Translations under genes and position numbers: made by a program
In this document: piece by piece, positions 2,244 through 64,000 of the stretch
How positions within the stretch are numbered: position 1 is the first letter of the stretch
Layout: each line of letters opens with the position of its first letter
IMG/VR virus record: IMGVR_UViG_3300042448_002155
Span: 49,715-113,714 of that record
Length of the DNA stretch: 64,000 bases
Direction: 5' to 3' (one strand)
Source of the DNA: a virus
Notes under the pieces: generated by a model
Databases searched by the model: none
What the model was told of the DNA's origin: nothing
The model's input: the letters and a program-made list of their open reading frames with translations, nothing else

Positions 2244-5200
2244 TTAATAAGATCGGGCTATCGATTGATATGGGTCTCTTGCCACATCCGGGATTCTATT
2301 ATACATAGTACTGTTAATACTCCCATTAGTGAGTCCCGATGCTGCTGCACTAAATTTTTGTATTTGGTCCCTATCGCCAAATAGGGAGACCTTATAATTC
2401 ATGCCCGCAGTAAAGCCTTGACCTCGTGCCTGTGGAATTTCTGACATTCTCTTTGGATAGTCGGACTCATAAGCTGATCCTCCTGGCAAAAGGGGTGGGC
2501 CGGACATGGCTTCCTGAGTGTGATCTTTTTTGTTTTGATATAAAAAGCTAGCTGCTATAGCTATTCCAGCACCTATGGCTGCATTGCGGACTCCGGGTTT
2601 GGCGAACTGCTCTGCTAGATATTGTTTGTTCATTCTTTTGTACATCGATTGTGAGGCAGTTGATTTCTTTACCTGCGACAGGTCCCTAAGGGTGTCTGCA
2701 ACAACTCCTGGAGTTGTTTCTGTTATATCATCTGCGGAAGAAAGAATTCTACTTGAAGCTAAATCTCCATTTAAGAAGGCTGCAGCTTCCTTGTCTGCCT
2801 GTGCATTCAATTCAAAGGCAGTTTTATTTCTTAGCGCTCTAGCTATTTGCTGTTCTTCCATAGTGCCTGCCCCTTCCTCGGCCTGGCCTTTTATGATTGA
2901 TGAAATAACAGAAGAAGTTTTGCCTGTTCCAAAAAAGTCATCTGCAAAATCTAAGTCCAGCGCATCATCCATGATGCCTGCCTTTTGAGTATCGGACATA
3001 TTGCCAAAAATGTCATCGACGTATTGTCTTAGTTGAAGGTTCTTAGTTGACTTTTCGTATATAGCCTTTTGATCTGACATTTGCATATACCTATGAAAGA
3101 GATTAAGGCTCTCATTGTCTATGTTTGTTGATGAGTCTGGAAGTTTTGTAAAAAACTCTGGAGCTATTTTTCTTCTTAATCCGCCATATTGAAGGGCGCT
3201 AGTTAGTTCATACCCAGATATGCCCATTGATTTTTGCACGTCTTGAAGATTTCTTAGTAAATTATCTCCCAGTTCTATTTTTTTTATCTCTAATGCTATT
3301 TTTGATGATTCTGCAAAAGAGCCACTTTGTATTTCGTCAGCTAAACTTTGTACTGCTTTTATTCTTTCTTGATTTTCGTCTAATATTTTTTCTGCTGCAA
3401 TTCGTGATCTTTCGCTTGTCCTGGAGACTAGCTCTTGTTCTTGACTGATTTGCGCATTTCTTCCCAGTTTTGCCATGGCTTCTAGGTAATAGTTTGAAGT
3501 ATTAGCTACGTCTACTATCTCAGAGAGTGATCCTTTTGCTATAATTCCTCTGGCCCTTAAAACTTTTTCTACTTCGTCATATTGTTGAGATTCTACGGCT
3601 TTATTAATGTCAGTTACATCTGCAGCGTTGTCTGCCTCCAACATCCCTGCTGATAAACTTCTTGCAAAATTTATAAGATCATTCTTATTCATTTTTTTAC
3701 TAGTTAAGAAAGCTTCATCGAGTACAAGGGCCTTACGTGGATCCATTGGATCCATTCCATCAAGTTTGTGTTTTTGCCTTAAGTAACCAAACATTTTTCC
3801 ATACTGTTGCATTGTTTTGTCGCCAAAATCATTTAGGTTAGTTTCTTTTCCGTATAATTCTTTTAGTACTTTTACTCCCAAGTTTGGATCTCCATTTGCA
3901 AGCTTAGTAGTTTGCCCCAACAGCATTCGTCCAGATGTAAAAGTTTGCGTCATGTCAATGACGGTTTCAGCTGGAGTAAAAGCTAACATTAGCTTCTTAT
4001 TTATCAAGTCCTCTTGTATGCCAGGAATTGTCCCCAGCATGTCTTCCATCTGCCTTAGGCCATGTCCAACCACAGTAGCTCTATTAATGTACTGTCCAAG
4101 GATGTTTGTATTTTCTATTGCTGAGTCAATACTCTTATTTATGAAAGATTTTCCTAGTGCAATACTTTTTTGTTCAGGGCTAATATTTAACGCATTGACT
4201 GTCTTATAAAACTTATCTGATAAACTTTGTATTTCCCTATCGGCGTCTTCAAGATCAACTCCGCCTAAATTTAAACGATTTTTTCTTTGATCTTTTAATT
4301 CTTTCGTCATCTGTTGAAGTTGACTTTTTTGCGATCTACTTATCAGGCTCATGCTATCTAGACTTGATAAGACTTCTTGTTCGAGTGGCATTTCTGCCAC
4401 TTCTGCCACTAGCCTCTGGAACCCAAGTGACATTAGTCCTGGATCTTGGTCACCTAAAGCGATTAATTTTGTTGCAGAGAAATGAGTAACTCCTTCTGTG
4501 CCATCGTCTAAAGTTCCAAAAACTCCTAATTTTTTAAAAAAGTTTTTATTAAAATCTCGCATTCCGCCAGTTCTAACACCATTGTCGAACTTAGCGCCGC
4601 TTAAGATGTCATTAACCTCAATGGTTAATTGTTCAATTGTACCCATCATTGAACTATTTATGACATCATCTGAAACTCCAGATCCGTCAAATGCCATTTT
4701 TAATCCAAGAAATTTAGAATCTCCTTTAGCCATCTCATCCAAAGTCTTCATAAAGAATCTATTGCCACCAAAAATTTCACGATAGCTTTCTATGTCCTCA
4801 AACCTAGTAAGGCCAATAACTTCGCCCATTGAAGTAGGCTGACGGACCATGGCGGCACCTAGTCTGCGCTTACCTTCAGACATATAGGTTCCAAGTATAG
4901 GCAATCCCTTATCGTCTAAGTCGAAACCTCCTAGTGCATGATAGAACTTTCTAATGTCATCTTCATGAAATAAAATATTATGATTAGAAACTCTGAACTG
5001 CGCAATCTGTGCGGAAATTTCATCGCCAGCTTCACCTATCGTTACCTTAATCGGCTTTCCTGATAATATCTTTGTTGGGTCAATGTCAATTGACTTTCCT
5101 GATAGCGTCTTTCTTCCAGTAGTTCCAGTCATTGCATTTGCTTCCGAGTTAAGAGCAAATCTATATACATCACCAACCACTGGAAGTCTCTGCCCATTTT

Positions 5201-7097
5201 TTGTTTTATACAACTCAGCTTCATAGTATTTTTTTAACAGATTTAAATATTCTGGAGAATCATTAATGCTTATACCACTTCTATGCAGATCTAAGATTCT
5301 TTGCGCAAAGTCTCTATTTAACATTTTTGAAAATTGCTGAGGTTCCGCAAACTGTTCAATATCTTGTTGTGCAAGTTTTTTAATCCCCTGCAAAACTTCA
5401 CTGTTATCGGTTAAGCGCCCACTTTCCAATATCCCCTTAAATTCATCTAACACATTTCTTGAGTACTTGCTGGATATTGCTATATCTTCTGTGTTTCCAA
5501 ATATTGCGTCATGGAAAGAAGCCAACATTGGGTCCGTGTACACTCTAGAAGTGGATTCAGCTAGTCCGCTTAGATTTAATACAGGAGTACCTGCTGCTAT
5601 TCCTGTTTCTTTCTTTAATCCACTAATTGATGTTATGATTCCATACTTCTCAAATCTTTTTGAAAAATTTTTAAATTGAGCCGCTGACTTATAAGAGTAA
5701 TCAACACCGCCAATTCGCACAGAACCTCTAACCGTACCCTGAGATAAACCTATGGCCTCTCCGTCTTTTATATTTAGCTCAGATAACTGCCTTCTTAATT
5801 CAACCTTACGAATCATTGATTGTTCATCCCTATTTTGGGTTAGACTCCCCAATTCTTGGTGCAAGGTTTTTCTTAATTCACTTGCAAATTTTGTATTGAT
5901 TAACGATGAACCATCTCGACCTTTCTCCAACTCATCTAGCAGGCTCTTAATAACTCCGCTTGTTTCATCATCAATTAAACTTGAATTGTTAGGGTCGTTT
6001 AGGAACTTTTTTATTTCATTGGTGCCGAATATGCCCTTATCGGAGTCATTCTTTCCGTCTCTAATAATATCTTTTACGAGATTTTCTAGTGAATTAAGTA
6101 TTTTTGTTTTATCTAAATTTGACGTCGGTGTTGTCCGAGATTTAATTATTTCATCTAATACATTATTAACATAACTGCTTGCTTCTTCAACCGCTGTTCC
6201 GCCACCCTTATACTGAAAAGATTCTTCCATAAATGCTCTTACGTCAAATTGCTTTGTGCCTAGGGCAAAGTTCTTAGCGGTGTCCTGATCAAAGCCTAAG
6301 GCTATTGTCTCAAACACATTGTCCATAGCAAGAGTGGCTTGTGATAATTCATCCATTATTCCTTTAGGCCCAAAAACTGTAGGCTTGCTCAGGAACGATT
6401 TCATGAGGTCTCCGGATATGGAAATATCTCTTGGAGAAAGAACACCTTTTAATCTTTTTGGAAGCTTTGCAAATAATTTAGATAAGCCTTCGTTTCCACC
6501 TTTTAATGCTTTATCTAATTCGTCTGGAGTGAACAAAGGTCTTCCGCCTTTGGACATTGCCTCTAGGGTTTCCTCCATTGACAATACTCGATCACCTTGG
6601 CGAAGACTAAGAGCCATTCCACCCTCATCGGTAGGAAATATTAATCCAGCCTTTTGATTTTTCATGTCCTGAAGGAATTTTCCAATACTTTCAGAGCCAG
6701 CTTCTGCTTTATGAATTTTGATTTGAGCACCGTATTGCTGATCTCCAGTCAACCCTAATGCTTCATTAATATCCATGAGCACCTGCCCGTAACCCCTGTA
6801 CGTGGAAGGGCCAAGAGTTCCTGGCTCGATATTTACTAGCTCAGTCAATCCAAAGCTAGATACATGCTGCGCAACCTCTTCTATTGAATCGGATACGAAC
6901 TGTGCTGATTGGCCTGCCTTTAGCCTTAGGGGGTCAATGTAGGTTGATTTAAATTTTAATTTTCCGTCAACATCAACAACTTCTATCAATCCTTTTTGGC
7001 CAAGATAGCTTTTACTTAAAGCCTGTTTGGCTAAAAGTAATCGTCTCTCCCTTGGCATGGGAGATAGGTATGACTGAATATAATCAGATACAGACAT
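2244..7097 (-). CDS. Putative virion-associated single-chain two-barrel RNA polymerase-like protein (1617 aa) with a C-terminal hydrophobic segment
   Basis: Ordered motifs KLPKRL, RDGSSLI, GTVRG...YKS, GGFDLDD (4911-4931), VRQPTSMGE and LGQYIN. These parallel YonO/RdRP motifs and the ORF at 60553. Confidence 0.6.
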   Translation of the reverse strand: MSVSDYIQSYLSPMPRERRLLLAKQALSKSYLGQKGLIEVVDVDGKLKFKSTYIDPLRLKAGQSAQFVSDSIEEVAQHVSSFGLTELVNIEPGTLGPSTYRGYGQVLMDINEALGLTGDQQYGAQIKIHKAEAGSESIGKFLQDMKNQKAGLIFPTDEGGMALSLRQGDRVLSMEETLEAMSKGGRPLFTPDELDKALKGGNEGLSKLFAKLPKRLKGVLSPRDISISGDLMKSFLSKPTVFGPKGIMDELSQATLAMDNVFETIALGFDQDTAKNFALGTKQFDVRAFMEESFQYKGGGTAVEEASSYVNNVLDEIIKSRTTPTSNLDKTKILNSLENLVKDIIRDGKNDSDKGIFGTNEIKKFLNDPNNSSLIDDETSGVIKSLLDELEKGRDGSSLINTKFASELRKTLHQELGSLTQNRDEQSMIRKVELRRQLSELNIKDGEAIGLSQGTVRGSVRIGGVDYSYKSAAQFKNFSKRFEKYGIITSISGLKKETGIAAGTPVLNLSGLAESTSRVYTDPMLASFHDAIFGNTEDIAISSKYSRNVLDEFKGILESGRLTDNSEVLQGIKKLAQQDIEQFAEPQQFSKMLNRDFAQRILDLHRSGISINDSPEYLNLLKKYYEAELYKTKNGQRLPVVGDVYRFALNSEANAMTGTTGRKTLSGKSIDIDPTKILSGKPIKVTIGEAGDEISAQIAQFRVSNHNILFHEDDIRKFYHALGGFDLDDKGLPILGTYMSEGKRRLGAAMVRQPTSMGEVIGLTRFEDIESYREIFGGNRFFMKTLDEMAKGDSKFLGLKMAFDGSGVSDDVINSSMMGTIEQLTIEVNDILSGAKFDNGVRTGGMRDFNKNFFKKLGVFGTLDDGTEGVTHFSATKLIALGDQDPGLMSLGFQRLVAEVAEMPLEQEVLSSLDSMSLISRSQKSQLQQMTKELKDQRKNRLNLGGVDLEDADREIQSLSDKFYKTVNALNISPEQKSIALGKSFINKSIDSAIENTNILGQYINRATVVGHGLRQMEDMLGTIPGIQEDLINKKLMLAFTPAETVIDMTQTFTSGRMLLGQTTKLANGDPNLGVKVLKELYGKETNLNDFGDKTMQQYGKMFGYLRQKHKLDGMDPMDPRKALVLDEAFLTSKKMNKNDLINFARSLSAGMLEADNAADVTDINKAVESQQYDEVEKVLRARGIIAKGSLSEIVDVANTSNYYLEAMAKLGRNAQISQEQELVSRTSERSRIAAEKILDENQERIKAVQSLADEIQSGSFAESSKIALEIKKIELGDNLLRNLQDVQKSMGISGYELTSALQYGGLRRKIAPEFFTKLPDSSTNIDNESLNLFHRYMQMSDQKAIYEKSTKNLQLRQYVDDIFGNMSDTQKAGIMDDALDLDFADDFFGTGKTSSVISSIIKGQAEEGAGTMEEQQIARALRNKTAFELNAQADKEAAAFLNGDLASSRILSSADDITETTPGVVADTLRDLSQVKKSTASQSMYKRMNKQYLAEQFAKPGVRNAAIGAGIAIAASFLYQNKKDHTQEAMSGPPLLPGGSAYESDYPKRMSEIPQARGQGFTAGMNYKVSLFGDRDQIQKFSAAASGLTNGSINSTMYNRIPDVARDPYQSIARSY

Positions 7098-51339: not shown

Positions 51340-52743
51340 CTATTCTATATTGATCTTTTTCTTTATTGGTTTTTGAAAATCAAAAGTAAAGTTATCATTG
51401 AGATAATCTATATAGAATATAGTACCTTTTGGAATATTGCTATTAACAATTGTTTTAGCAAGTGGCGTTTCTATGACGTCTCTTCTAACTTGAGAGATGC
51501 CTCTTGCGCCCTTTATGGTATCTACACCCTTCTCTATCAGGGCATTTATAACATTGTCAGTATATGCCATTGATAGCCCTCTTTTGGAAAGTTTTTCTGC
51601 TATAACTGACATTTCTATTTCTGCGATCTTTTCACAATCTCCTTGATTGAGGTGGTTGAATACAACTATTTTATCTAATCTATTGATAAATTCCGGCTTA
51701 AAGTACTTATTGATAGCTTCGTGAGTATTTTTCTCAACCATCGATCTCAGTGGTGTTTCTTTTGTGTCTCGCTTAAAAGTAATATTTTTAGTAAAACCTG
51801 TACCGGTAGCAATCATATGATCAACTGTTTTGTCATTTCCTAGGTTAGTTGTTAAAATTACTATTGTATTTCTAAAACTAATATGATCCCCTTTTGAGTC
51901 GGTAACTATGCCATCGTCAAATATTCTTAGAAAGGTGTTCCAAATGTCCTGATGAGCTTTTTCCACTTCATCGATTAGAACTACCGTATATGGATTCTTT
52001 TTTACCTGATTAGTTAGTTGCCCACCCTCGTCATGGCCAACGTATCCTGGAGGAGATCCTAACAGCTTGGCATTTTCGTGTTTATGTTGAAACTCTCCGC
52101 AGTCGATTCTAACCATCGGAGAGTCATCGCCAAAGAGGTATGTATGAAGTGTGTTTGCTAGGTGGGTTTTGCCAACACCAGAACTTCCGGCAAAAAGAAA
52201 AACACCTAAAGGACGGTTTGGATCATTTAGATCGGCTTGTGATCTAAAGAGTGCAGCATTTATTTCTTCAATTGCTTCATCCTGTCCAATAATATTATTT
52301 TTTAAATGATCTTCTAGTCCAAGAAATTTTTGTTTAGTAAGTTTTTTACTCTTTGGTAAGGGCTTTGTCTGTTTTGTTTGGGCTTGCTTTAAAAATTCTT
52401 TAACTCTTTTAATATCATTATCTACCTCAGAGTTGAAATCATTCTTAGTAGGATTCGTTGAATAGGCGATATTCAACCAGTAGTCTATATCCAAGCCAGG
52501 GTTGAGCATCACACAGCCCGCGTATACGGCCTCCAGGGCTCGCTCAGCGCCCTCTCTTGACATGGATGACAGCGCAGCCGCAACATCGGTATTTAGGTTG
52601 TAAACGACGTACTGAAGAATTCTCTTACGAAGGTCCTTCGCAGACTTATTCTTCTTGAGAAATTCTTCCACATCGGAAACCGCAAGAACTTTAAATTTAA
52701 CACTAGTGCCGAGCTCAGGTACAAAGATTTGATATATATTCAT
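51340..52743 (-). CDS. ClpA/ClpB-family AAA+ ATPase (single D2-type module)
   Basis: IIGQDEA, RPLGVFLFAGSSGVGKT, GSPPGYVG, LIDEVEKAH, FKPEFINRLD, GAR; likely start MNIY. Confidence 0.85.
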   Translation of the reverse strand: MNIYQIFVPELGTSVKFKVLAVSDVEEFLKKNKSAKDLRKRILQYVVYNLNTDVAAALSSMSREGAERALEAVYAGCVMLNPGLDIDYWLNIAYSTNPTKNDFNSEVDNDIKRVKEFLKQAQTKQTKPLPKSKKLTKQKFLGLEDHLKNNIIGQDEAIEEINAALFRSQADLNDPNRPLGVFLFAGSSGVGKTHLANTLHTYLFGDDSPMVRIDCGEFQHKHENAKLLGSPPGYVGHDEGGQLTNQVKKNPYTVVLIDEVEKAHQDIWNTFLRIFDDGIVTDSKGDHISFRNTIVILTTNLGNDKTVDHMIATGTGFTKNITFKRDTKETPLRSMVEKNTHEAINKYFKPEFINRLDKIVVFNHLNQGDCEKIAEIEMSVIAEKLSKRGLSMAYTDNVINALIEKGVDTIKGARGISQVRRDVIETPLAKTIVNSNIPKGTIFYIDYLNDNFTFDFQKPIKKKINIE

Positions 52744-52783
52744 AAAATGCCTTTCTGACGACACGTTCCCTTATATAGAATAT

Positions 52784-52866
52784 TATAAGTATACGTTGCT
52801 ATATAAGTATACAGGATATAGTTGCTATATAAGTATATAGTAAAGGGGGGAAGGGGGGAAGGGGGG
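52784..52866. repeat. TATAAGTATA x3 (GTTGCTATATAAGTATA x2) followed by three G6 tracts
   Basis: Direct repeats at 52795 and 52821; G6 tracts at 52845, 52853 and 52861 separated by AA. Confidence 0.75.
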
Positions 52867-52875
52867 ATCATGGCT

Positions 52876-52905
52876 AGCTTATCACAGCGTGTCAACTTTT
52901 GTCAA
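52876..52905 (-). promoter_or_regulatory. SigA-type promoter for the leftward operon
   Basis: TTGACA-18 nt-TAAGCT with extended -10 TG. Confidence 0.5.
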
Positions 52906-53063
52906 CGCGATTTTGGATTATAATCCTCGATGCTAGGATGTGGTTCGATGCAAGGGCCGGAAAATGCCCAATACTTAAGTAAGTCCATGGGTGTTTGAAA
53001 TCTATTGCTTAATAGGTATAATGCTAAATGAAGTTCTTCATTTTTAGTTACTCGCTTGCTCAT
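52902..53063 (-). CDS. Small hypothetical protein (53 aa)
   Basis: Hand translation MSKRVTKNEELHL...; AGGAG RBS; upstream TGATATAAT. Confidence 0.5.
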   Translation of the reverse strand: MSKRVTKNEELHLALYLLSNRFQTPMDLLKYWAFSGPCIEPHPSIEDYNPKSR

Positions 53064-53085
53064 TAATACTCCTAGGTGTTATAAT
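53056..53085 (+). promoter_or_regulatory. SigA-type promoter for the recA operon
   Basis: TTGCTC-18 nt-TATAAT with extended -10 TG. Confidence 0.55.
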
Positions 53086-53135
53086 ACTCTTAAAATATAT
53101 AAACAATATTATATCACCCCTGGAAGGGATACGTA

Positions 53136-53369
53136 ATGCTGCAGAAGTCCGACCTTATTGGCATTGTTGATCAGAATTTACAACTGCAACATCAAAAAAT
53201 TCTAACTGCTTTAAATCGAGCAGAGTGCTCATCATCTCAATACGAAATCTTAAAAAAGAATCTCTTACTAGAGATGCGTCGTTTTGAGGCAGAAGCTGAT
53301 ATAATAATAAGTGACGCTGAGTGCAGAAGCACAGATGAACACACACAAGGAAAGCTTTTTGATGACTGA
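53136..53369 (+). CDS. Hypothetical protein (77 aa)
   Basis: ORF coupled to recA through an ATGACTGA overlap. Confidence 0.55.
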   Translation: MLQKSDLIGIVDQNLQLQHQKILTALNRAECSSSQYEILKKNLLLEMRRFEAEADIIISDAECRSTDEHTQGKLFDD

Positions 53370-54408
53370 GGATTTAGAGCCCGCTGTAAAAAATGTTGAA
53401 TTTGATAAATCAACTGGAGAAATACTTCCTTCCGCAAAGAAAGTTCTTAAGGAAGAGTCTAAGACACTTGAGATAGCAATAGCTCAACTTCAGAAGCAGT
53501 ATGGTGCTGGCTCAGTTGTGCGACTTGGATCCACTAATATTAAACCATGGGACTCAATTTCAACTGGAGCACTCACGCTAGATAATGCTCTTGGAATTGG
53601 TGGTTTCCCGCGCGGGCGCGTAGTTGAAATCTACGGACCTGAATCATCAGGTAAGTCCACCATAGCTTTGGCCACAGTAGCCAAGGCTCAGCAAATGGGC
53701 ATCACGTGCGCTTACATCGACGCAGAGCACGCACTTGATCCAGTATACATGCAGGCTGTAGGCATTGACCTAGACAATCTCTTGTTGGCACAGCCAGATT
53801 ATGGCGAGCAAGGTTTTGATATTGCAGATAGACTTTTGCGCACTGGAGAAGTCGGATTAATTATTATTGACTCAGTTGCAGCACTTGTTCCTAAGGCAGA
53901 GCTTGATGGCGAAATGGAACAGGCTCACATGGGCTTGCAAGCACGCATGATGGCAAAAGCTATGCGTAAGATTACTGGACTCGCTGCTCAGCACAATACT
54001 CTTATTATATTCATTAACCAATTGCGAAACAAAATTGGAGTTATGTTTGGTAATCCTGAAACCACTCCTGGTGGATTTGCTCTCAAGTTTGCAGCGTCTG
54101 TTCGTATCGACGTCCGCAAGAAGGAAGACTTGAAGGATAAGATGGGCAATCCAATCGGAGTAAAGATTAAAGCTAAGGTTATCAAGAATAAGATGGCACC
54201 CCCAATGAAAATTGTAGAGTTTGATATTATCTATGCTCAGGGCATTGATGAGTTTGGTTGTATCTTTGATCTAGGGATAGACAAGGGTGTTCTCGCACAA
54301 AAGGGCGCATGGGTTTATTATAACAATGAAAACTTTGCGCAGGGCAGAGATAACGCTATTGAAAAGCTTAAGTCAAATCCTGAGATTGTCGCTGCAATCA
54401 AGAAGTAG
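53362..54408 (+). CDS. recA: RecA recombinase
   Basis: GRVVEIYGPESSGKST, IDAEHALDP, IIDSVAALVP, INQLR, FGNPETTPGG; start placed at ATG 53362. Confidence 0.95.
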   Translation: MTEDLEPAVKNVEFDKSTGEILPSAKKVLKEESKTLEIAIAQLQKQYGAGSVVRLGSTNIKPWDSISTGALTLDNALGIGGFPRGRVVEIYGPESSGKSTIALATVAKAQQMGITCAYIDAEHALDPVYMQAVGIDLDNLLLAQPDYGEQGFDIADRLLRTGEVGLIIIDSVAALVPKAELDGEMEQAHMGLQARMMAKAMRKITGLAAQHNTLIIFINQLRNKIGVMFGNPETTPGGFALKFAASVRIDVRKKEDLKDKMGNPIGVKIKAKVIKNKMAPPMKIVEFDIIYAQGIDEFGCIFDLGIDKGVLAQKGAWVYYNNENFAQGRDNAIEKLKSNPEIVAAIKK

Positions 54409-57066: not shown

Positions 57067-57498
57067 TTTTTATCCTTTGATGTGTTAAGCATTAGCTGGT
57101 ATGGGTTGATGTGACCCTTGGGGATCACGTCATTGACTATATCCATTGCGGGCGGGTTGATGCAACTCGTAGGTAGTTATTTTAGAAAAAAAATTTCTTA
57201 CGGGCGATTCTGTATAGGAAAAAATTTTGGACTGAAATGGATGAAAGGTGTTGCGAGTTTTTCTAAATTCGAGGGGCAAACGTTTCTAATCTCGAGGGGG
57301 TATAAACGTATATAGAATCTATATAAGAGAAAATATAGAAAAAAATTATAGGGAAAATATATAACCTTATATAGGTTTAATATATGGTAAAAATTAAGGA
57401 AAATTTATGAGGGGGAGATAGTGAGTATATGTGTACTCTTTAGACTTTTAACATGCCCACCCGGGTATGGGGTCTATTCCTTTGAAAGGGGAACTATT

Positions 57499-58164
57499 AT
57501 GTTGAAGAAAATTATCCGTTGGAGTCCTATTGTAACTGTTGTACTTGGCATCATGATGTGGTTAGGTTTGCACCTAGCTACTGATGGCAGTGGTGACATT
57601 GACAACTACTCATTTGTTAGCAATAGTTCTGCCTTTGCTATGAGTGACATACTGTCTATGTTTGGTCACTCAAGTAATGACCACTTATTTACTAACCTAT
57701 TGGTATTGATACTCTATTGTACAATAGGGGAATTGCTATTAGGTAGTAAGAAGTTCCTGCTAGGGATAGTAGCTATTATGACTGCACAGGTAGTCATTCA
57801 GGAAGTCATCGGTGACTTCTATGGCATAGGTGCATCAGGGTGGCTAGCTGCTACTCCAGGACTCATGCTCTTGGGTGCAATACTCAAGGTGCGTCAGACA
57901 GGTGAGGGCGTTGGTTGTATGGGCTTCCCATACATGATCTACGTTCCCATGCTAGCTATGGTTGTATGGGATATCCAGCACCTGAACAGTGGTGATGGAA
58001 CCGGCCATGATTCCCACTTGATAGGTCACGCAGTAGGAGGTGTCTTTGCAGTAGTTGCGGTAGTACTTAGTGTTATTACTGCAATTGCAGAAGTCAAGGA
58101 GTGGCTACGTCAAAGAGCTCACCGTAAGGCGTGGGCTGCGAGGCGTGCACTTATATCAGTATGA
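57499..58164 (+). CDS. Rhomboid-family intramembrane serine protease
   Basis: SMFGH...HLFTN, GASG (catalytic Ser), HLIG (catalytic His), several TM helices; GAAAGGGG RBS before ATG 57499. Confidence 0.8.
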   Translation: MLKKIIRWSPIVTVVLGIMMWLGLHLATDGSGDIDNYSFVSNSSAFAMSDILSMFGHSSNDHLFTNLLVLILYCTIGELLLGSKKFLLGIVAIMTAQVVIQEVIGDFYGIGASGWLAATPGLMLLGAILKVRQTGEGVGCMGFPYMIYVPMLAMVVWDIQHLNSGDGTGHDSHLIGHAVGGVFAVVAVVLSVITAIAEVKEWLRQRAHRKAWAARRALISV

Positions 58165-58260
58165 CAAAGTTAGTTTCCCCTGGGGTCTTCGGATCCTGGG
58201 GGAAACTTCTTTTTTGAGGATAGGCCGCCGGTCTAACTCATTCTCTGAAAGGGGATTGTT

Positions 58261-58359
58261 ATGTCAAACATGACATTTATTTTAGTTGGTAATGCCGTAT
58301 TTGCTGTTTTGTGCACAATGGCTATATTGCCGTTGTTCTTCTATAACAAGAAGAAGTAA
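58261..58359 (+). CDS. Small single-TM protein (32 aa)
   Basis: MSNMTFILVGNAVFAVLCTMAILPLFFYNKKK; GAAAGGGG RBS. Confidence 0.55.
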   Translation: MSNMTFILVGNAVFAVLCTMAILPLFFYNKKK

Positions 58360-58608
58360 GTAGATAAAGGGTAGTGTCTTACCTTGCGCACTAGCAAAGA
58401 CACACTATAGAAGAAGTTGTTTCCCCTGGGGCATTTGCCTTGGGGGAAACTTCTTTTTTGAGGATAGGTCATTGTCCTTTAGTAAGGTTCGCCATGGGCC
58501 AACGGATTCACTCGCGTTAAAGAGTAGACATGGAAGATGGTTTTACCATTCGTAATAATCACGTTCAGTACGTTAAGTTGAACAAAGGCATGTTTCTTGG
58601 AGGAAATC

Positions 58609-58836
58609 ATGTTGCAATTCATTAAGAACAATAAGTACTTCGCACTAGTTCTCTTGTTGGTATTCACGCCAACGAGTAAATTAGTGTTCGGGCTATTCGG
58701 CATTGCTGCTGGATTCATCAACTGGGGTCTTTTGATCCTGGTTGGCATCGTTGTGTTGGGTGTTAAGCTCAACAACAAGTTTGACTTTAGTGGGTTTAAC
58801 CCATTTAAGTCAGACGAAGAGGATGACGACCTCTAG
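58609..58836 (+). CDS. Small membrane protein, paralog of 59055-59324
   Basis: GGAGG RBS; hydrophobic; PT...INW motif. Confidence 0.7.
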   Translation: MLQFIKNNKYFALVLLLVFTPTSKLVFGLFGIAAGFINWGLLILVGIVVLGVKLNNKFDFSGFNPFKSDEEDDDL

Positions 58837-59054
58837 TTAATTAGGTAGGATGATGACCCATCCTGCCTGAAAGAAGTTGTTTCCCCTGGGGCATTTGCCT
58901 TGGGGGAAACTTCTTTTTTGAGGATAGACCATTGTCCTTACTGGTAGCCAGAATGCAGGCATAAAACCAGTCCGGGTGACGCCGGTTCATCAGTCAACGT
59001 AATAATCACGTTCAGTACGTTAAGCTGAACAAAGGCATGTTTCTTGGAGGAATC

Positions 59055-59324
59055 ATGTTGTCATTCATTAATAAGAAGGTCATCTTTGCGGTGGCAGTAG
59101 CAGTAGCAGTGTTGTTGGTATTGGAGCCAACAACCGATATCACAATGGCGGTATTGCGCTTGCCAAGTAAGGCTGCTTGGATGATCTTGGGCTTTGTGTT
59201 CAGTATCATCAACTGGCCAGTGCTTATTATGATGGTCATTGGTTTTGCCGTGGCTTTTGTAGTAAAGACCAGGTCAGTTGACTGGTCAGAGGTAAAGTCC
59301 TTCTTTAATAAAGAAGAGGCTTAA
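59055..59324 (+). CDS. Small membrane protein, paralog of 58609-58836
   Basis: GGAGG RBS; hydrophobic; PT...INW motif. Confidence 0.7.
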   Translation: MLSFINKKVIFAVAVAVAVLLVLEPTTDITMAVLRLPSKAAWMILGFVFSIINWPVLIMMVIGFAVAFVVKTRSVDWSEVKSFFNKEEA

Positions 59325-59485
59325 TCAAGAGGGGTGATGGTCCACCTCTTTAATAGAGAAGAAGTTGTTTCCCCTGGGGTCTTCGGATCCTGGGGGAAAC
59401 TTCTTTTTTGAGGATAGACCCATGGTCTTTCTCTAGGCTTAAGCCACAGCCTAGCCATCCCGGCGAAGTGGCAAAGGGGGTCGAG

Positions 59486-59776
59486 ATGAAGCTCGACATC
59501 CAATGGTGGGCAACCACTCAAGACGCCATCGTGGGGTTAATTCCCCTCGACGGCAAAACCCTCGTGATCAAAAGCGATCATGATGGCAACTTCATTGGCT
59601 ACAAGGCCGATGAAGTTACCCTTGAACACCTCGCAATTGCGGGCGAGACATTTCGCCTGTATGCGGTGTGCAGGAGGGGCAGAAGGGTTGAGGAGATTCG
59701 TCTCCTTAATCCTGTCCTTATGGACTTGTTGGGGATTGACCCTAACGAGATCATGAGGTCCACTACCTTTAGTTGA
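59486..59776 (+). CDS. Hypothetical protein (96 aa)
   Basis: Start MKLDIQWW after AAAGGGGG. Confidence 0.6.
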   Translation: MKLDIQWWATTQDAIVGLIPLDGKTLVIKSDHDGNFIGYKADEVTLEHLAIAGETFRLYAVCRRGRRVEEIRLLNPVLMDLLGIDPNEIMRSTTFS

Positions 59777-59882
59777 GGTGGTGGAGCAAAAAGGTTGTTT
59801 CCCCTGGGGTCTTCGGACTCTGGGGGAAACACCTTTTTTGATTATAGACCCCCGAACAACTGAAGGGGTTGGAAAGGTAATC

Positions 59883-60026
59883 ATGAGCGAGCCATACGAG
59901 TGTTTAGACGGAGTGTGCCGGGACGTAGTGTCATGGACACCCATGGGTGTGCTTGCAGCCGTCGTCATAACGGCTATATCGGTACTTGCCATTGTTCGCG
60001 TCATTGAGCAAATCCGACGCAAGTAA
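59883..60026 (+). CDS. Small single-TM protein (47 aa)
   Basis: Start MSEPYEC after GAAAGG. Confidence 0.55.
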   Translation: MSEPYECLDGVCRDVVSWTPMGVLAAVVITAISVLAIVRVIEQIRRK

Positions 60027-60144
60027 TTGGTAATTATTAGTAATTGAGTTGTTCCCCGGGGATTGGCAGAAATGCTGGTCCTCGGGGAAACTTCTTTTTT
60101 GAGTATAGGCCGTTGGTCTACTCTAATCCTGAAAGGGGATTGTT

Positions 60145-60429
60145 ATGAGTATGTTTGCAAAATATTGTACCCTCTGTGTCAAGAGGGGACGCAAGAATCC
60201 ACCTGCTCCAGTACATCGGAGTAAGGTCTGGGCATATTGCCATGACTGCTATGTAGAGCAGTTTCCAGCAATGGCCATCAAGCGGGGTTATATCGAAGCT
60301 CCGCCTAAGGCACCCCAACAGCCCAAGGAAAGGGTTATGGAAGTGTTTGTTCAGACTTCTCTCTTCGAGAAGGAGGAGAAGTTTAATATCCGCAAATTCG
60401 GTTGTGGATGTCAGGGTCTTCTGCCATAA
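60145..60429 (+). CDS. Zinc-finger-like protein (94 aa)
   Basis: CTLC...CHDC; GAAAGGGG RBS. Confidence 0.65.
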   Translation: MSMFAKYCTLCVKRGRKNPPAPVHRSKVWAYCHDCYVEQFPAMAIKRGYIEAPPKAPQQPKERVMEVFVQTSLFEKEEKFNIRKFGCGCQGLLP

Positions 60430-60552
60430 CGGTGGGAGATGCAAAGAGGCCTCAGATCCAGGGTAGCACCTGGGTCTGGGGTCTTTTTTATTATCAAAGT
60501 TTCTTTTTTGAGTATAGACCTCCGAACAACCGAAGAGGTCAGAAAGGTAATC

Positions 60553-63500
60553 ATGAAAGTTTCAACCACCACCAATAACAGTCCAAAGGAGGACGCCATG
60601 AAGCAAGCAAGAACTACTGGCAAGATCTACGCGGGTTCAGGCTCACGTAGCCTAAAGCTAGATGCGGAAATGTTCACTCGGGTGTTTAATCGCCTAATTG
60701 AAATGATTCGCGAAACCAAGCCAGCCATGCTTATCACAGGTATGGCTGAAGGTTTTGACGAAGCTCTGGCATTGGCAGCCATGGCTACCCAAACGCCATT
60801 GAAGGCCATGATCCCCTATAAGGGCTATGGCAATCACTATTGGGGTAAGGCATCCATTACTGGTCAGAGCCGTTTAACTGAGTACAGGGACATCCTTACC
60901 TATGCCCAGTCTACGGGAGGAGTGGAGTACATCTGCTCAGATAAGAAAGGCCCTGACGGTCGTTGGGCTATGACTCATCGCAATGAAGCCATGGCTAATG
61001 CTTGCCATAAGGCTTGGGTCTACAACCCTACTACGGCCGGGACAAAGCAGTTCCATGACTATTGCGTGGCCAACCAAATTCCGCACTACATCATCAAATT
61101 CAACGATGGGGAAGGCCCTGGGGATACACCTCAGACGCCAACCCCAGAAGGTCCAAAGGAGGACAAAGCAATGAAGAAATACCTAGTTAAGTACACAGAC
61201 GGCACTGAAGAGGTGATCGTCACGGACAAGGGAATCCTTGGATTAACCCAAGACCTCAAAGATGCAGGAAAGGGTTGTTCTATCAAAACCTATAAGGAGG
61301 AAGTTATGGAAATGACTCAGATCAAAACTGAGAAGCAAGTTACACCAGAGGCAGCTCTTATCAAGCGAGAACTGCTTAGCCCTGAAACTCAGGAGTGGTT
61401 ACTCTCCGTCTTGGAGAACGAGATTGCTCCAATGCTGGTCAAGGACATCAGTTCTTATGCGCCTGGTCGTATGCGGACCTGGATGCCGTACGAAGCTCCC
61501 CTTGATACGTCCGCTAGCAAGAACAAGCCATTCGTGCCCGGAGTCCTGCACGATGAGCTCTGGCAGTTCATCGTTGACCTATGCCACAAGCATGGGATGA
61601 AAGCGCAAACCTGTCTCATCTCAAAGGGTGGGAACATCAAACCTCACCGAGACACCACTTATGCTGATGCCTGGGCCATGGGCATAAATCTGGGTGTCTG
61701 CAACTGGCACATCAGCTCTACCCGAGATGGAGCCAAGCCGGACTTCACCATGAACCTTAAAGGAGGGGAAGTGTTTGCATTTAATAGTAAGCACGTACAT
61801 GCAGTGACAGACGCTGCATCAGACCGATGGGCAATCAATGTGTGGGCAATTGCTGACACAAAGGCAGCTCAGACCGCTCAAATTCATGAGCGAATCACTC
61901 AGATGCTTGAGGACAATCCTCGGGTAGCTGAATTCATCGACCATCACCAACCAGGTGCTGGCAAAACAGAAAGGGAGGAAGTCGTGGAGACACCTCAGAT
62001 CAAGGCCGTAGACGCATCCATTCAAGAAGTCATTGAACCAAATAAGGAGCAGAAAGTTATGGACACACCTCAGATCAAAGGAGATATGAATATGTACAGC
62101 TGGATTGAACAGCCAGATATGACTACCCATACCGGTTGGGATAAGGACCGCAAACAGGTCGACGCAATGTTCGGAGAGCAAATCCGGACAGTGTTGACCA
62201 ACAATCCAACGCCTAAGCAGCGTCAGGACATGGCAAACGCCACACTGGGCACTGGTGCAACGATCATTGATGCAGTCAAGGGACTGTGGATGATGCCTGT
62301 CAAGATGGGCGAATACATCTTCCCAATGCTTGAGCGTCTGGGCAATGCGGGAGTTAGGTTCACCCTAGAGGTGCACCCGCTCAAGTACGCAGCCCTCTGG
62401 TACGATGCCAGAACCGGATTCGAGACTCGCTTTGGGGACATCTGGTCCAACGGTGCAAACCTCAAATGGGTTGACGCAGCCCACCTCTACACCATTCGAC
62501 TGGAGGGCATTCCGGTTGGAACTGAGTTCGACTGGACTCAAGTAGGTCTAGAAGTAAAGGATGCAAAGAAGATGGGTAAGCGCCTTGCAGAGCTCACTCG
62601 TCTTGTGCATAAAGATGCATGGACATGGTTTCAGCACAAGGCTGTAATCATCAAGCCCGAGGTTGGGGCACTGGATCCTGCGTTCGAGATCATCAAGCAC
62701 GATGGCCTCAATGCCGTAAAGCGTTCTGCCCTACCTAAGGGTGTTCGCAAGTATGACCGAATCATGGGTCGTGTATTTTGCTCCATCGTTGTGGACGGAA
62801 AGACTGTCCCCGTACTCGTCAAGGGTGACTACTTGGTGGTCAATGATGACATGTGGATCCATGGACATGCTCATTTGGCTATCCACATGGAGAACGCTAA
62901 GACCGAGGTCACACTTGCTGCTGGCCAGAAAGATCTTGCTACCTGGTGGAATCATGAGCCTTTGCACGTGACCACATGGGATCAGCAAACTCTCATCAAC
63001 TACCCCAACATTCTGACCGTTGAGGATATGGAAGCTGACTACCTCCATGAGATGAATGGAATTGACGAGGCACTTAAGCAGGGACGTCTCCCAGGTCAGA
63101 CAGAAGTTGAGGACATAGAAGTCCATACCGATGCATTCGAGGTCGCACCTAAGGCTGACGAAATCGAAAAGCGTGAGTCTTTGGCAAAGTACGCCAAGGA
63201 TGCAGGTTTCGATCCTCGGATGTTTGAGAACCTCATCGGTATGTCACTGATGGGCTTCGTAGATAGCAAGTCACGTGAACTCCGCTTTGATGGAAACATG
63301 AAAGGCTTCCATGGTAAGCACATGGTGACCATGCGTAACTCATTCCGTGCAGGGTGCGTTACTCGCGAATTCCTAGAAGCTTTTGTTGGTGACGGAGCTT
63401 TTGCAGGAGTTTCCACGCCTACCTCACACGCTTATTATGATGAGCGTTGGGGCATGGTTTGGAATGGTGATCACTTCGCACGTTCCTTTGAACTGCACGG

Positions 63501-64000
63501 CACTCATGATGGTGACGATGTTCACTTCGTGTTGCCGATCAAGGTTTGGTCGAAAGATCCGACTACGATTGCTGCGCTTAAGGCTGCGGGAGTTCTTCTT
63601 CCGGGAGTATCTATCCCTAGCGTAGAGGCAAAGGCCAAAATGCTTCTCATTGTCTTCCGCATCCCCAATGGTGCTGGAGAGTACTCCTTAATGGAGTTTG
63701 ACTTTGCCACATGGCCTCAGACCATTGATTTCGACGAGTCTCTTGTCAAGACTCATGAGTTGAGCTTCCTCAGCGGTTGGGTCAAGCCTCAGTCAATGCT
63801 GATCCCGATCAATATGCCAGGACTTACCACTAGTCGTGTGTACAGCAAGACTGCTTATACCAAGGCAGATTTTGCCATGGACTTCAATGCACAGGTAGTC
63901 AATCCTGGCTTTGGTCAGTTGTGCAATGCTTTGGCTGCGTACAGTCACTTGACTCATGGGGATATCCCAACCTGCATGCCTGATAGCCTGGGCAACTGTG
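60553..64000 (+). CDS. Multidomain protein running off the right edge: YspA-like SLOG domain, 2OG-Fe(II) oxygenase domain and two-barrel RNA polymerase-like region (absent from ORF track)
   Basis: Hand translation has no stop codon up to 64000. SLOG: AGSGSR, ITGMAEGFD, RNEAM, AGT. 2OG: IKPHRD, HVHAV, RWAINVW. Polymerase-like: KKMGKRL, HDGLN, GRV...VKGD, HGTHDGDD, FRIPNGAGE, FGQLCN. Confidence 0.75.
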   Translation, partial: MKVSTTTNNSPKEDAMKQARTTGKIYAGSGSRSLKLDAEMFTRVFNRLIEMIRETKPAMLITGMAEGFDEALALAAMATQTPLKAMIPYKGYGNHYWGKASITGQSRLTEYRDILTYAQSTGGVEYICSDKKGPDGRWAMTHRNEAMANACHKAWVYNPTTAGTKQFHDYCVANQIPHYIIKFNDGEGPGDTPQTPTPEGPKEDKAMKKYLVKYTDGTEEVIVTDKGILGLTQDLKDAGKGCSIKTYKEEVMEMTQIKTEKQVTPEAALIKRELLSPETQEWLLSVLENEIAPMLVKDISSYAPGRMRTWMPYEAPLDTSASKNKPFVPGVLHDELWQFIVDLCHKHGMKAQTCLISKGGNIKPHRDTTYADAWAMGINLGVCNWHISSTRDGAKPDFTMNLKGGEVFAFNSKHVHAVTDAASDRWAINVWAIADTKAAQTAQIHERITQMLEDNPRVAEFIDHHQPGAGKTEREEVVETPQIKAVDASIQEVIEPNKEQKVMDTPQIKGDMNMYSWIEQPDMTTHTGWDKDRKQVDAMFGEQIRTVLTNNPTPKQRQDMANATLGTGATIIDAVKGLWMMPVKMGEYIFPMLERLGNAGVRFTLEVHPLKYAALWYDARTGFETRFGDIWSNGANLKWVDAAHLYTIRLEGIPVGTEFDWTQVGLEVKDAKKMGKRLAELTRLVHKDAWTWFQHKAVIIKPEVGALDPAFEIIKHDGLNAVKRSALPKGVRKYDRIMGRVFCSIVVDGKTVPVLVKGDYLVVNDDMWIHGHAHLAIHMENAKTEVTLAAGQKDLATWWNHEPLHVTTWDQQTLINYPNILTVEDMEADYLHEMNGIDEALKQGRLPGQTEVEDIEVHTDAFEVAPKADEIEKRESLAKYAKDAGFDPRMFENLIGMSLMGFVDSKSRELRFDGNMKGFHGKHMVTMRNSFRAGCVTREFLEAFVGDGAFAGVSTPTSHAYYDERWGMVWNGDHFARSFELHGTHDGDDVHFVLPIKVWSKDPTTIAALKAAGVLLPGVSIPSVEAKAKMLLIVFRIPNGAGEYSLMEFDFATWPQTIDFDESLVKTHELSFLSGWVKPQSMLIPINMPGLTTSRVYSKTAYTKADFAMDFNAQVVNPGFGQLCNALAAYSHLTHGDIPTCMPDSLGNC

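What the first reader, a model, noticed from the sequence alone, without database searches (positions are those of the whole stretch)
62086..64000. Second (putative non-virion) RNA polymerase-like region missed by the ORF track
Seen: the frame starting at 60553 is open to the window end and carries DG (62701), KG (62821), HDGDD (63505-63519), RIPN (63658) and GQLCN (about 63913). It sits directly behind the last copy of the repeated early motif. Inference: a cascade in which the injected RNAP reads the repeated motif and makes this second RNAP, which then reads late promoters such as the TTACTAT boxes.
Basis: partly seen in the sequence, partly recalled or inferred. Interest (0 to 1): 0.85.

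Follow-up and report, generated by a model that had tools for sequence, protein, structure and literature searches.

The report
Early phage two-barrel RNA polymerase gene
The last 3.4 kb of this phage contig is the start of a large early gene whose main part is predicted to fold like the catalytic core of cellular and RNAi RNA polymerases. Its metal-binding loop is one residue shorter than the textbook one, so it is probably a second, non-virion polymerase of a family not described in the papers I could search.

Summary
Observation confirmed. A frame from ATG 60553 stays open to the contig end at 64000. A stand-alone homolog (48% identical) folds with pLDDT 93 and pTM 0.90. Its best structural matches, out of 48,161 chains, are the single-chain two-barrel RNA polymerases: maize RDR2 (Z 11.1), QDE-1 and P74-26 gp62 (Z 8.7), and P23-45 gp96 (Z 7.4). 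The acidic loop is DxDD in 107 of 107 sequences, not DxDxD. The gene lies 33 nt behind the seventh copy of a conserved early motif. The 1617-aa tail-module ORF is a remote homolog (hhalign 91%).

So "RNA-polymerase-like, probably non-virion" is supported. The cascade is plausible and has a precedent in P23-45 gp96 and gp64, but it is untested. The TTACTAT late-promoter idea is weak.

New here: the polymerase core is fused to SLOG-like and 2OG-oxygenase-like domains, and in relatives to PIF1 helicase, NADAR or DUF4326. This keeps a helicase-coupled or priming role open.

This scan has already flagged DxDD two-barrel polymerases on other DNA, in at least 24 genomes. The paper library held nothing on them. 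About 320 C-terminal residues are missing because the contig ends.

The parts
58173..60520 (+). Array of seven early cassettes. Each has a terminator-like hairpin with a T-run, followed by the conserved motif TTTTTTGAKKATAGRYC. Each precedes one gene, and the last precedes the polymerase gene.
   Evidence: 7 copies, all +, expected 0.39. None elsewhere in the 113.7-kb contig, and conserved upstream of the orthologous genes in L002, L007, L009 and L011-L013.
60453..60489 (+). Hairpin plus T-run (terminator-like) ending the upstream small gene. Here it is detached from the motif.
   Evidence: Read from the sequence.
60504..60520 (+). Seventh copy of the early motif (TTTTTTGAGTATAGACC), the candidate promoter of the polymerase gene.
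   Evidence: The equivalent copy lies upstream of the orthologs in L007 (6979) and L009 (8283).
60518..60552 (+). 5'UTR: a short hairpin (ACCTC...GAGGT) and an AAAGGTAATC ribosome-binding stretch, shared with the gene at 59883.
   Evidence: Repeat D5, 89% identity; sequence.
60553..63999 (+). Multidomain early gene, cut at its 3' end by the contig end. Full-length relatives have 1466-1487 aa, so about 320 aa are missing.
60634..61107 (+). N-terminal SLOG/YpsA-like Rossmann module (weak assignment).
   Evidence: phrog_289 E 1.8e-8. BLASTP to the SPbeta YpsA-like YoqJ gives E 0.019 over 146 aa. No Pfam or NCBIfam hit.
61552..61848 (+). 2OG-Fe(II) oxygenase-like module (weak, below the Pfam cut-off). 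An HxD...H pattern is visible.
   Evidence: PF13640 E 0.027 and PF13532 E 0.12; sequence.
62086..63999 (+). Two-barrel polymerase core: the first 638 of about 880 residues. It corresponds to residues 1-603 of the stand-alone homolog P0027.
62569..62601 (+). Basic helix KKxxKRxxExxR (K, K and R invariant), in the position of the duplex-binding helix that precedes the first barrel.
   Evidence: Position inferred from the domain order described in PMC10770324.
62608..62955 (+). First double-psi beta-barrel (beta-like, DPBB-B) with invariant DG (62701), KG (62821) and NxKxE (K at 62899).
   Evidence: Model residues 142-256 match isolated DPBB domains (VAT-N, designed DPBBs; Z about 4) and the RNAP chains. 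Conservation, mapping.
63343..63759 (+). Second double-psi beta-barrel (beta'-like, DPBB-A).
   Evidence: Secondary structure of the model, whole-chain matches, mapping.
63508..63519 (+). DxDD acidic loop (DGDD here), the predicted metal-binding triad. It lies between a helix and a strand, as NADFDGD-QMAVHVP does in E. coli beta'.
   Evidence: D 107/107 at all three positions. Helix-loop-strand in the model. Beta' sequence.
63658..63681 (+). RxPNGxGE motif (RIPNGAGE), colinear with SPANGEP of beta'.
   Evidence: R and P 108/108, G 106/108, E 98/108. Beta' PANGEP at 493, 29 residues after DFDGD.
63901..63927 (+). NPGxGxxxN kink between two long helices, the candidate bridge-helix region.
   Evidence: The assignment is an inference.
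2244..7097 (-). 1617-aa ORF in the tail/giant-protein block: a remote homolog carrying GGFDLDD and RQPTSMGE, and the candidate virion polymerase.
   Evidence: hhalign of family profiles A3 against A5: probability 90.9%, E 1.1e-6, 297 columns. Single-sequence hhalign E 0.0029. BLASTP negative. No DxDxD in it.

Best explanation
The region is the 5' three-quarters of an early phage gene of about 1,500 codons. Its product has an SLOG-like module, a 2OG-oxygenase-like module and, from about 62086 onward, a single-chain two-barrel nucleotidyl transferase of about 880 residues. This core is of the QDE-1 / RDR / P23-45 gp64 kind.

Predicted layout of the core: a basic helix and the first barrel supply invariant Lys/Arg. 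The second barrel supplies an invariant Asp-x-Asp-Asp loop that binds the catalytic magnesium. An RxPNGxGE element and long bridge-like helices complete the active centre.

Most likely function: it is the phage's non-virion DNA-dependent RNA polymerase. It would be made soon after infection from the last of seven terminator-plus-promoter cassettes, and it would then transcribe a later gene class independently of host RNAP. A very distant paralog in the tail module (1617 aa) is the candidate injected enzyme that reads the early cassettes.

Shown by computation: the open frame, family conservation, predicted fold, remote homology to the 1617-aa ORF, and the conserved position behind the cassette. 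Inferred: catalytic activity, DNA template, RNA product, timing, and which promoters each enzyme uses.
For: - AF2 model of homolog P0027 (48% identical to the window core; 108-sequence alignment): pLDDT 93.2, pTM 0.90.
- Foldseek against PDB: the top 20 hits are all QDE-1 or RDR2 (best E 2.9e-7, probability 1.0), followed by P74-26 gp62, P23-45 gp64, crAss gp66 and gp96.
- VIA-align against 48,161 chains: the six best entries are all two-barrel RNAPs (Z 11.1, 8.7, 8.7, 7.4, 7.4, 4.9). Residues 142-256 also match isolated DPBB domains.
- BFVD: P23-45 gp64 and phage proteins named RNA-dependent RNA polymerase appear among the hits.
- Invariant K/K/R, DG, KG, K, DxDD, RxP and G..N across 108 sequences, all present in the window protein.
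- Motif order [KR]xxxP, then DxDD, then PNG-E is colinear with E. coli beta' RAP425, DFDGD460, PANGEP493.
- The gene sits 33 nt behind a motif that is 18-fold over expectation, strand-specific, confined to the early block and conserved in relatives down to 39% protein identity.
- Remote homology to the tail-module 1617-aa ORF.
- A published precedent for a virion RNAP that makes a non-virion paralog: P23-45 gp96 and gp64 (PMC10770324).
Against: - No sequence-level link to any characterised polymerase: Pfam, PHROGs, NCBIfam and PDB profile searches are all negative for the core, and hhalign against YonO finds nothing.
- The acidic loop is DxDD, not the DxDxD regarded as universal. No enzyme with this loop has been assayed.
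- I had no model coordinates, so I could not check that the three Asp superpose on the QDE-1 triad.
- TM-scores to PDB chains are modest (0.33-0.40) with high rmsd.
- Recurrent fusions to PIF1 helicase, NADAR, DUF4326 and SLOG are unusual for a plain transcriptase and fit replication or conflict roles as well.
- The fold was predicted on a homolog, not on the window protein, whose last 320 or so residues are missing.
- Only about 54% of the phage genome is on the contig, so I could not check for other polymerases or primases.
Confidence: 0.55

Rival explanations
1. Helicase-coupled primer or ssDNA-templated polymerase for replication or recombination. The two-barrel core makes short RNAs on single-stranded DNA exposed by a helicase (fused PIF1 in relatives, a separate one here). 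It would act as a primase-like enzyme or as a replication-associated transcriptase, not as the general middle/late RNAP.
For: - At least 9 of 30 close homologs, and more distant ones, carry an N-terminal PIF1-type helicase on the same polypeptide.
- The gene lies in a conserved block with phage RecA.
- QDE-1 and crAss gp66 prefer ssDNA templates, and QDE-1 needs the QDE-3 helicase and RPA (bioRxiv 10.1101/2020.03.07.982082).
- Archaeal PolD shows that the two-barrel core can serve replication (PMC7708050 abstract).
Against: - The window protein itself has no helicase domain, and most of the 124 family clusters are stand-alone proteins of about 860-930 aa.
- The presence of a paralog in the tail module matches the known virion/non-virion transcription pairs.
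- No primase activity has been reported for any two-barrel enzyme in the papers read.
Confidence: 0.2
2. RNA-templated polymerase or conflict effector. The core copies RNA, like eukaryotic RDRs, or makes a nucleotide or RNA product used against host defence. It would act together with the fused SLOG, NADAR and 2OG-oxygenase modules, in the manner of phage 'polyvalent' proteins.
For: - The best structural matches are cellular RdRPs (RDR2 Z 11.1, QDE-1 Z 8.7).
- SLOG, NADAR and 2OG-oxygenase domains are typical of phage-host conflict proteins (PMC9503650 and PMC7824862, found; domains).
Against: - QDE-1-type enzymes transcribe ssDNA more robustly than RNA.
- No dsRNA or RNAi-like partner genes were seen.
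- The accessory domains vary between relatives while the core is constant, which suggests the core function does not depend on them.
- The SLOG and 2OG assignments here are weak.
Confidence: 0.1
3. Non-catalytic derivative. It would be a two-barrel scaffold that lost polymerase activity when the metal loop shrank to DxDD, and now serves as a DNA- or RNA-binding or regulatory protein.
For: The loop departs from the DxDxD found in every characterised member. The survey filter [RK]xPx{20,100}DxDxD of PMC10770324 reflects how constant that motif is.
Against: All three Asp, the two barrel Lys, the basic helix and RxP are invariant across 107-108 sequences that are only 17-28% identical to the reference at the distant end. 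That is the signature of a conserved active site, not of decay.
Confidence: 0.05

Closest known systems
Thermus phage P23-45 gp64 / P74-26 gp62 (non-virion single-chain two-barrel RNAP) with gp96 (tape-measure-fused virion RNAP); PMC10770324; PDB 8F72, 8F5M, 8H2M
   Same: - Single-chain two-barrel fold: VIA Z 8.7 to gp62 over 468 of 592 residues, Z 7.4 to gp96.
- Early phage gene.
- A second, very divergent paralog in the tail/virion gene block.
- A strongly conserved non-sigma70 motif in front of the early genes.
   Different: - gp64 and gp96 have canonical DxDxD (DFDGD in gp96), whereas this family has DxDD.
- No sequence similarity is detectable.
- Here the polymerase is the C-terminal module of a multidomain protein (SLOG-like, 2OG-oxygenase-like; PIF1, NADAR or DUF4326 in relatives).
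- The candidate virion paralog is a separate 1617-aa ORF, not fused to the tape measure.
- The host is a mesophile from freshwater-type metagenomes, and the genome is about 200 kb.
Cellular RNA-dependent RNA polymerases QDE-1 (Neurospora; PDB 2J7N, 7Y7P-T) and RDR2 (maize 7W84, Arabidopsis 7RQS)
   Same: - Best overall structural matches: Foldseek E 2.9e-7 to 1.2e-4, probability 1.0; VIA Z 11.1 and 8.7 over about 585 residues.
- One chain with both barrels.
- QDE-1 works with a helicase (QDE-3), which echoes the PIF1 fusions.
   Different: - 9-12% identity, and no hit to Pfam RdRP (PF05183).
- DxDD in place of DbDGD.
- Phage-encoded, with no RNAi context.
YonO of Bacillus prophage SPbeta (single-chain RNAP; PMC5467207)
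   Same: - A phage-encoded single polypeptide of about 840 aa with both barrels that transcribes late phage genes.
- SPbeta also encodes a YpsA-like SLOG protein (yoqJ).
   Different: - No similarity by profile-sequence comparison (hhalign E 0.55).
- YonO-type proteins carry DNDGD (supplementary table of PMC10770324).
crAss-like phage phi14:2 gp66 virion RNAP (PDB 6VR4)
   Same: Two-barrel single-chain phage RNAP, encoded among giant virion proteins. This parallels the 1617-aa paralog flanked by ORFs of 2207 and 3754 aa.
   Different: - Weak structural match (Z 4.9, Foldseek E 0.099).
- DFDxD motif.
- gp66 is virion-packaged, whereas the gene studied here lies in the early block.
E. coli RNAP beta' and beta catalytic barrels
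   Same: - Colinear motif order: RAP, then DFDGD followed by a strand, then PANGEP, against [KR]xxxP, then DxDD followed by a strand, then RxPNGxGE.
- A Lys-Gly in the other barrel (GNKG against KGD).
   Different: Multisubunit enzyme with many inserted domains. No sequence or direct structural hit appeared in the listed matches.

Membership tests
Two-barrel (double-psi beta-barrel) polymerase superfamily | Two DPBB domains forming one active centre, in the overall arrangement N-domain, DPBB-B, clamp connector, DPBB-A, bridge helix | tested here: met
   High-confidence model (pLDDT 93.2). The top PDB matches by two independent aligners are exclusively two-barrel RNAPs. Residues 142-256 match isolated DPBBs. 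This is a prediction on a 48%-identical homolog, not an experimental structure.
Two-barrel (double-psi beta-barrel) polymerase superfamily | DxDxD metal-binding triad in DPBB-A | tested here: not met
   The loop is D-x-D-D in 107/107 sequences, and DGDD in the window (63508-63519). Three Asp are present, but with a spacing one residue shorter.
Two-barrel (double-psi beta-barrel) polymerase superfamily | Two invariant basic residues supplied by the other barrel (DPBB-B) | tested here: met
   K214 (104/104) and K239 (104/105) lie in strands of the first barrel. Their spatial position at the cleft was not checked because no coordinates were available.
Two-barrel (double-psi beta-barrel) polymerase superfamily | [RK]xP 20-100 residues upstream of the Asp loop (survey filter of PMC10770324) | tested here: inconclusive
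   The family has [KR]-x-x-x-P (K/R 82 of 93, P 81 of 107) 55-59 residues upstream. In the window protein the Pro is Thr. The spacing is xxx, not x.
Two-barrel (double-psi beta-barrel) polymerase superfamily | Template-dependent nucleotide polymerisation | not testable with these tools
   Needs a biochemical assay.
Eukaryotic-type RdRP (Pfam PF05183; QDE-1/RDR) | Match to the family profile and a DbDGD loop | tested here: not met
   No Pfam hit for the core in the window protein or in six homologs. The loop is DxDD. Similarity is at the fold level only.
YonO-like phage RNAP | Sequence or profile similarity to SPbeta YonO | tested here: not met
   hhalign of the 71-sequence profile against YonO: probability 0.1%, E 0.55. 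A YonO family profile was not built.
P23-45 gp64/gp96-like phage RNAPs | Shared lineage-specific DPBB-B loops and N-domain helix (PMC10770324) | tested here: inconclusive
   Fold match Z 8.7 and 7.4. A residue-level comparison was not possible without coordinates.
T7-like single-subunit RNAP (right-hand fold) | Pfam RNA_pol (PF00940) / palm-fingers-thumb fold | tested here: not met
   No Pfam hit, and the structural matches are to two-barrel enzymes only.
Phage/plasmid 'polyvalent' multidomain proteins | Several unrelated enzymatic domains in one polypeptide that is delivered with the DNA | tested here: inconclusive
   The multidomain architecture is present. However, the gene sits in the early, promoter-cassette block, not in the virion module, and packaging cannot be tested here.

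The most novel reading that the evidence does not exclude
A metagenome-only lineage of phage two-barrel polymerases uses a shortened DxDD magnesium loop and is therefore invisible to DxDxD-based surveys. In roughly 200-kb freshwater phages it occurs as a pair: a tail-module (injected) form and an early non-virion form. The non-virion form is a modular platform fused to PIF1 helicase, NADAR, DUF4326, SLOG or 2OG-oxygenase domains. That would imply helicase-coupled transcription or priming on single-stranded DNA, a mode not described for any phage RNAP.
Probability: 0.45. Interest if true: 0.78.

Novelty: new variant of a known kind. Interest (0 to 1): 0.62.

Why it matters
Two-barrel polymerases are the oldest known transcription enzymes, and the DxDxD loop is treated as their universal signature. 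Published phage surveys filter on it. A conserved, evidently selected DxDD family would show that the metal site tolerates a different geometry. It would also enlarge the set of phages known to transcribe independently of the host.

Together with the tail-module paralog and the sharply defined cassette motif, it offers a compact system of two enzymes and two promoter classes. That system could be used to study how virion and non-virion polymerases diverge.

The helicase fusions suggest a testable link between transcription and DNA unwinding or priming. Small single-chain RNAPs with short, specific promoters are also useful as orthogonal expression tools.

Tried and rejected
- Sequence searches of the core were all negative: Pfam, PHROGs, NCBIfam and PDB profile searches.
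- megablast and tblastn against 50,697 phage records found no match.
- The ESM Atlas gave no usable hit.
- The first fold, with a 9-sequence alignment, was poor (pLDDT 57) and was discarded in favour of the 108-sequence run.
- The first representatives job failed because the profile had more than 1,200 positions. It was rerun with A2.
I therefore could not fetch the long contigs (69-203 kb) that carry full-length homologs, or test directly whether they also carry the 1617-aa family.
- IMG/VR held only one relative. GTDB genomes held none, so there is no prophage copy and no host assignment.
- No fused form longer than 2,078 aa was found (weak evidence).
- BLASTP of the 1617-aa and 2207-aa ORFs against the full-length homolog was negative. 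Only the profile-profile comparison found the 1617-aa link. The 2207-aa ORF and the 3754-aa giant ORF showed no link. The giant ORF carries a lysin/tail-type PHROG and one isolated DxDxD string that I did not pursue.
The motif order is colinear with beta'.
- The idea that the GC-richer early block is a chimeric or host fragment was rejected. The order RecA, rhomboid, cassettes, polymerase is conserved in independent metagenome contigs.


Full report
**Observation**

The window is the right-hand 64 kb of a 113,714-b linear viral record. CheckV estimates it as 54% complete, and the window end is the contig end.

The only long frame at the end is 60439..63999 (+), with no stop before the end. The functional start is most likely ATG 60553. 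It is preceded by the same 5'UTR hairpin and AGGTAATC-ATG as the small gene at 59883 (repeat D5, 89% identity). Gene callers start near-identical homologs at the next Met, 60598.

Full-length relatives (82-98% identical over the core) have 1466-1487 residues, so about 320 C-terminal residues are lost at the contig end.

**Family**

A word-indexed search found 30 homologs. A full HMMER scan of 1.84 billion cluster representatives found 124 clusters at E <= 1e-3, and 64 at E <= 1e-30. Most are stand-alone proteins of about 860-930 aa. None has a name or a Pfam domain on the core.

The family is absent from 50,697 deposited phage genomes and from GTDB genomes. It is present once more in IMG/VR and in nine JGI metagenome contigs.

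In a 108-sequence alignment the near-invariant columns are as follows (P0027 numbering):

| Element | Conserved residues |
|---|---|
| Basic helix | K129, K132, R133, E136, R139 |
| First barrel | D171-G172; K214-G215; N237-x-K239-x-E241 |
| Acidic loop region | H438-G439, then D442-x-D444-D445 |
| After the loop | R492-x-P494-N-G-x-G498-E499 |
| Helical region | N573-P-G-x-G577-x-x-x-N581; D607; Q611; D806 |

The window protein keeps every one that falls before its truncation. The glycine in HDGDD is variable, so the motif is DxDD.

**Fold**

With only 9 sequences the model was poor (pLDDT 57). With 108 sequences the stand-alone homolog P0027 (835 aa, 48% identical to the window core) gave pLDDT 93.2 and pTM 0.90.

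- Foldseek against PDB ranks QDE-1 (E 2.9e-7, probability 1.0), maize and Arabidopsis RDR2, then P74-26 gp62, P23-45 gp64, crAss phi14:2 gp66 and P23-45 gp96. Nothing unrelated scores below E 0.06.
- VIA-align, which does not depend on Foldseek, compared the model with 48,161 chains. Its six best entries are the same enzymes: ZmRDR2 Z 11.1 (587 residues), gp62 Z 8.7 (468 of 592), QDE-1 Z 8.7 (583), gp96 Z 7.4 in two crystal forms, and gp66 Z 4.9. The next rows are isolated double-psi barrels aligned to residues 142-256.
- BFVD adds two uncharacterised proteins from 'uncultured Caudovirales phage' as family members (E about 1e-33), plus P23-45 gp64.

**Anatomy**

Single-chain two-barrel RNAPs run in this order: N-domain, duplex-binding helix, DPBB-B, clamp connector, DPBB-A, bridge helix, trigger loop (PMC10770324). 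The conserved elements here follow it:

- basic helix (62569-62601);
- first barrel with DG, KG and K (62608-62955);
- a helical connector;
- second barrel (63343-63759) with DxDD between a helix and a strand, then RxPNGxGE;
- long helices kinked at NPGxGxxxN (63901-63927).

In E. coli beta' the same order is RAP425, then NADFDGD460-QMAVHVP, then SPANGEP493. In this family it is [KR]xxxP, then DxDD-(T/S)xxxVP-like strand, then RxPNGxGE. No permutation has to be assumed.

What departs from every characterised member is the spacing of the acidic triad. The published survey of phage RNAPs filtered on [RK]xPx{20,100}DxDxD and would not have retained this family. A search of the paper library for DxDD together with RNA polymerase and phage found nothing.

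**Context**

- The first 52.8 kb of the window are minus-strand virion genes. They include three consecutive giant ORFs of 2207, 1617 and 3754 aa. The 3754-aa ORF runs off the window start and carries a lysin/tail PHROG.
- From 53.3 kb the genes are on the plus strand: RecA, an unknown 605-aa protein, a rhomboid-like protein, then single small genes.
- Each small gene is preceded by a hairpin with a T-run and the motif TTTTTTGAKKATAGRYC. There are seven copies, all on the + strand, at 58210-60520, against 0.39 expected. There are none elsewhere on the contig.
- In the seventh copy the motif is detached from its hairpin and lies 33 nt before ATG 60553.
- The same cassette, and the same RecA / rhomboid / cassettes / polymerase order, recur in independent contigs. 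Their polymerases are 39-50% identical, and the most distant ones have a slightly shifted motif, CCCTTTTTG(Y)GGATAGRYC.
- The motif has no -35 partner, because the hairpin occupies that space, and it ends in ATAGR rather than a TAnnnT hexamer. It therefore does not look like a sigma70 promoter. Which polymerase reads it is unknown.

**The paralog**

BLASTP finds nothing between the 1617-aa ORF and this protein. A profile built from 17 homologs of the 1617-aa ORF aligns to the family profile with 90.9% probability and E 1.1e-6 over 297 columns. The alignment places DG on DG, the barrel Lys region, GGFDLDD on HGGxDxDD, and RQPTSMGE on RxPNGxGE.

The phage thus has two very divergent DxDD two-barrel genes, one in the tail block and one in the early block. 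This is the arrangement shown experimentally for P23-45, where the tape-measure-fused gp96 transcribes pre-early genes, including that of the non-virion gp64.

**Points against a simple transcriptase**

The core is the C-terminal module of a larger protein. In the window it follows an SLOG/YpsA-like module (phrog_289 E 1.8e-8; weak BLASTP to SPbeta YoqJ). It also follows a weak 2OG-Fe(II) oxygenase-like module.

In relatives the N-terminal partner is a PIF1-type helicase, NADAR, both together, or DUF4326. No forms longer than 2,078 aa were found.

Helicase fusions recall QDE-1's dependence on the QDE-3 helicase and its preference for ssDNA. They leave room for a replication-linked or priming role. 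The accessory domains are typical of phage-host conflict proteins.

**The TTACTAT proposal**

There are 19 hits against 13.1 expected, and 3 of 100 shuffles reach 19. Seven of the 15 minus-strand hits lie 32-73 nt upstream of minus-strand ORF starts. There is no extended consensus, and the box resembles an ordinary -10 hexamer. It may mark late promoters, but nothing ties it to this enzyme.

**Comparison, novelty and limits**

In fold and probable role the protein works like P23-45 gp64 or YonO. By the tests available it is not a member of the RdRP Pfam family, the YonO family or the T7-like RNAPs, and it fails the literal DxDxD criterion. I class it as a new variant of a known kind.

The scan has already reported DxDD two-barrel polymerases on other DNA: 35 notes in at least 24 genomes, covering both tail-module and non-virion forms. 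First-reader notes on this genome describe the 1617-aa ORF, the cassette array and in-frame ribosome-binding sites at the domain borders. I tested the first two here and agree with them. The third I only inspected.

Limits:
- The fold was predicted on a homolog.
- No coordinates were available for active-site superposition.
- The gene is truncated, and no biochemistry exists for any DxDD enzyme.

Noticed in passing
window 61290-61330 and 61984-62094: The domain linkers repeat a (D/E)TPQI(K) peptide. They also contain in-frame Shine-Dalgarno-like AAGGAG strings followed by ATG: TAAGGAG then ATG 62059, and AAAGGAG then ATG 62086 and 62092. The ATG at 62092 has ideal spacing. Internal initiation could produce a stand-alone polymerase core like the 835-aa homologs, or the strings may simply encode Lys-Glu.
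   Followed up: partly
window 3-1778 (-), continuing to G000:C1:40228: One 3754-aa ORF runs off the window start. It matches phrog_20474 (annotated endolysin, 402 bits) and tail PHROGs. It is the third of three consecutive giant ORFs (2207, 1617 and 3754 aa).
   Followed up: partly
window 53311-54408 (+) and 57421-58164 (+): A bacterial-type RecA (PF00154, 392 bits) and a rhomboid-domain protein are encoded in the early block. The same pair, in the same order, occurs next to the polymerase gene in unrelated metagenome contigs (L009, L007).
   Followed up: partly
window 52765-53310: The divergent intergenic region between the late (minus) and early (plus) modules holds tandem copies of GTTGCTATATAAGTATAYAG (52795-52840), further TATACTTATA repeats and a C-rich CCCCCCTT run. 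It is a possible origin or regulatory hub.
   Followed up: no
window 58000-64000: GC content rises from about 0.40 in the virion module to 0.47-0.50 in the early block.
   Followed up: no
window 51340-52764 (-): A ClpB/Cdc48-type AAA+ ATPase (PF07724 E 3e-53, with the ClpB D2-small domain) is the first gene of the minus-strand module.
   Followed up: no
L007 13522-13950; L009 13504-13950: Downstream of the polymerase gene in relatives, the cassette motif changes to TTTTTTGMTWATAG(A/T)(C/G)C variants followed by CAAAGTGGGG. This may be a second promoter class beginning right after the polymerase gene. In the window this region lies beyond the contig end.
   Followed up: no
L002 5373-6929; L007 5293-6849: In PIF1-fused relatives a PcfJ-like protein (PF14284, E 9e-8) is encoded immediately upstream of the polymerase gene.
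   Followed up: no
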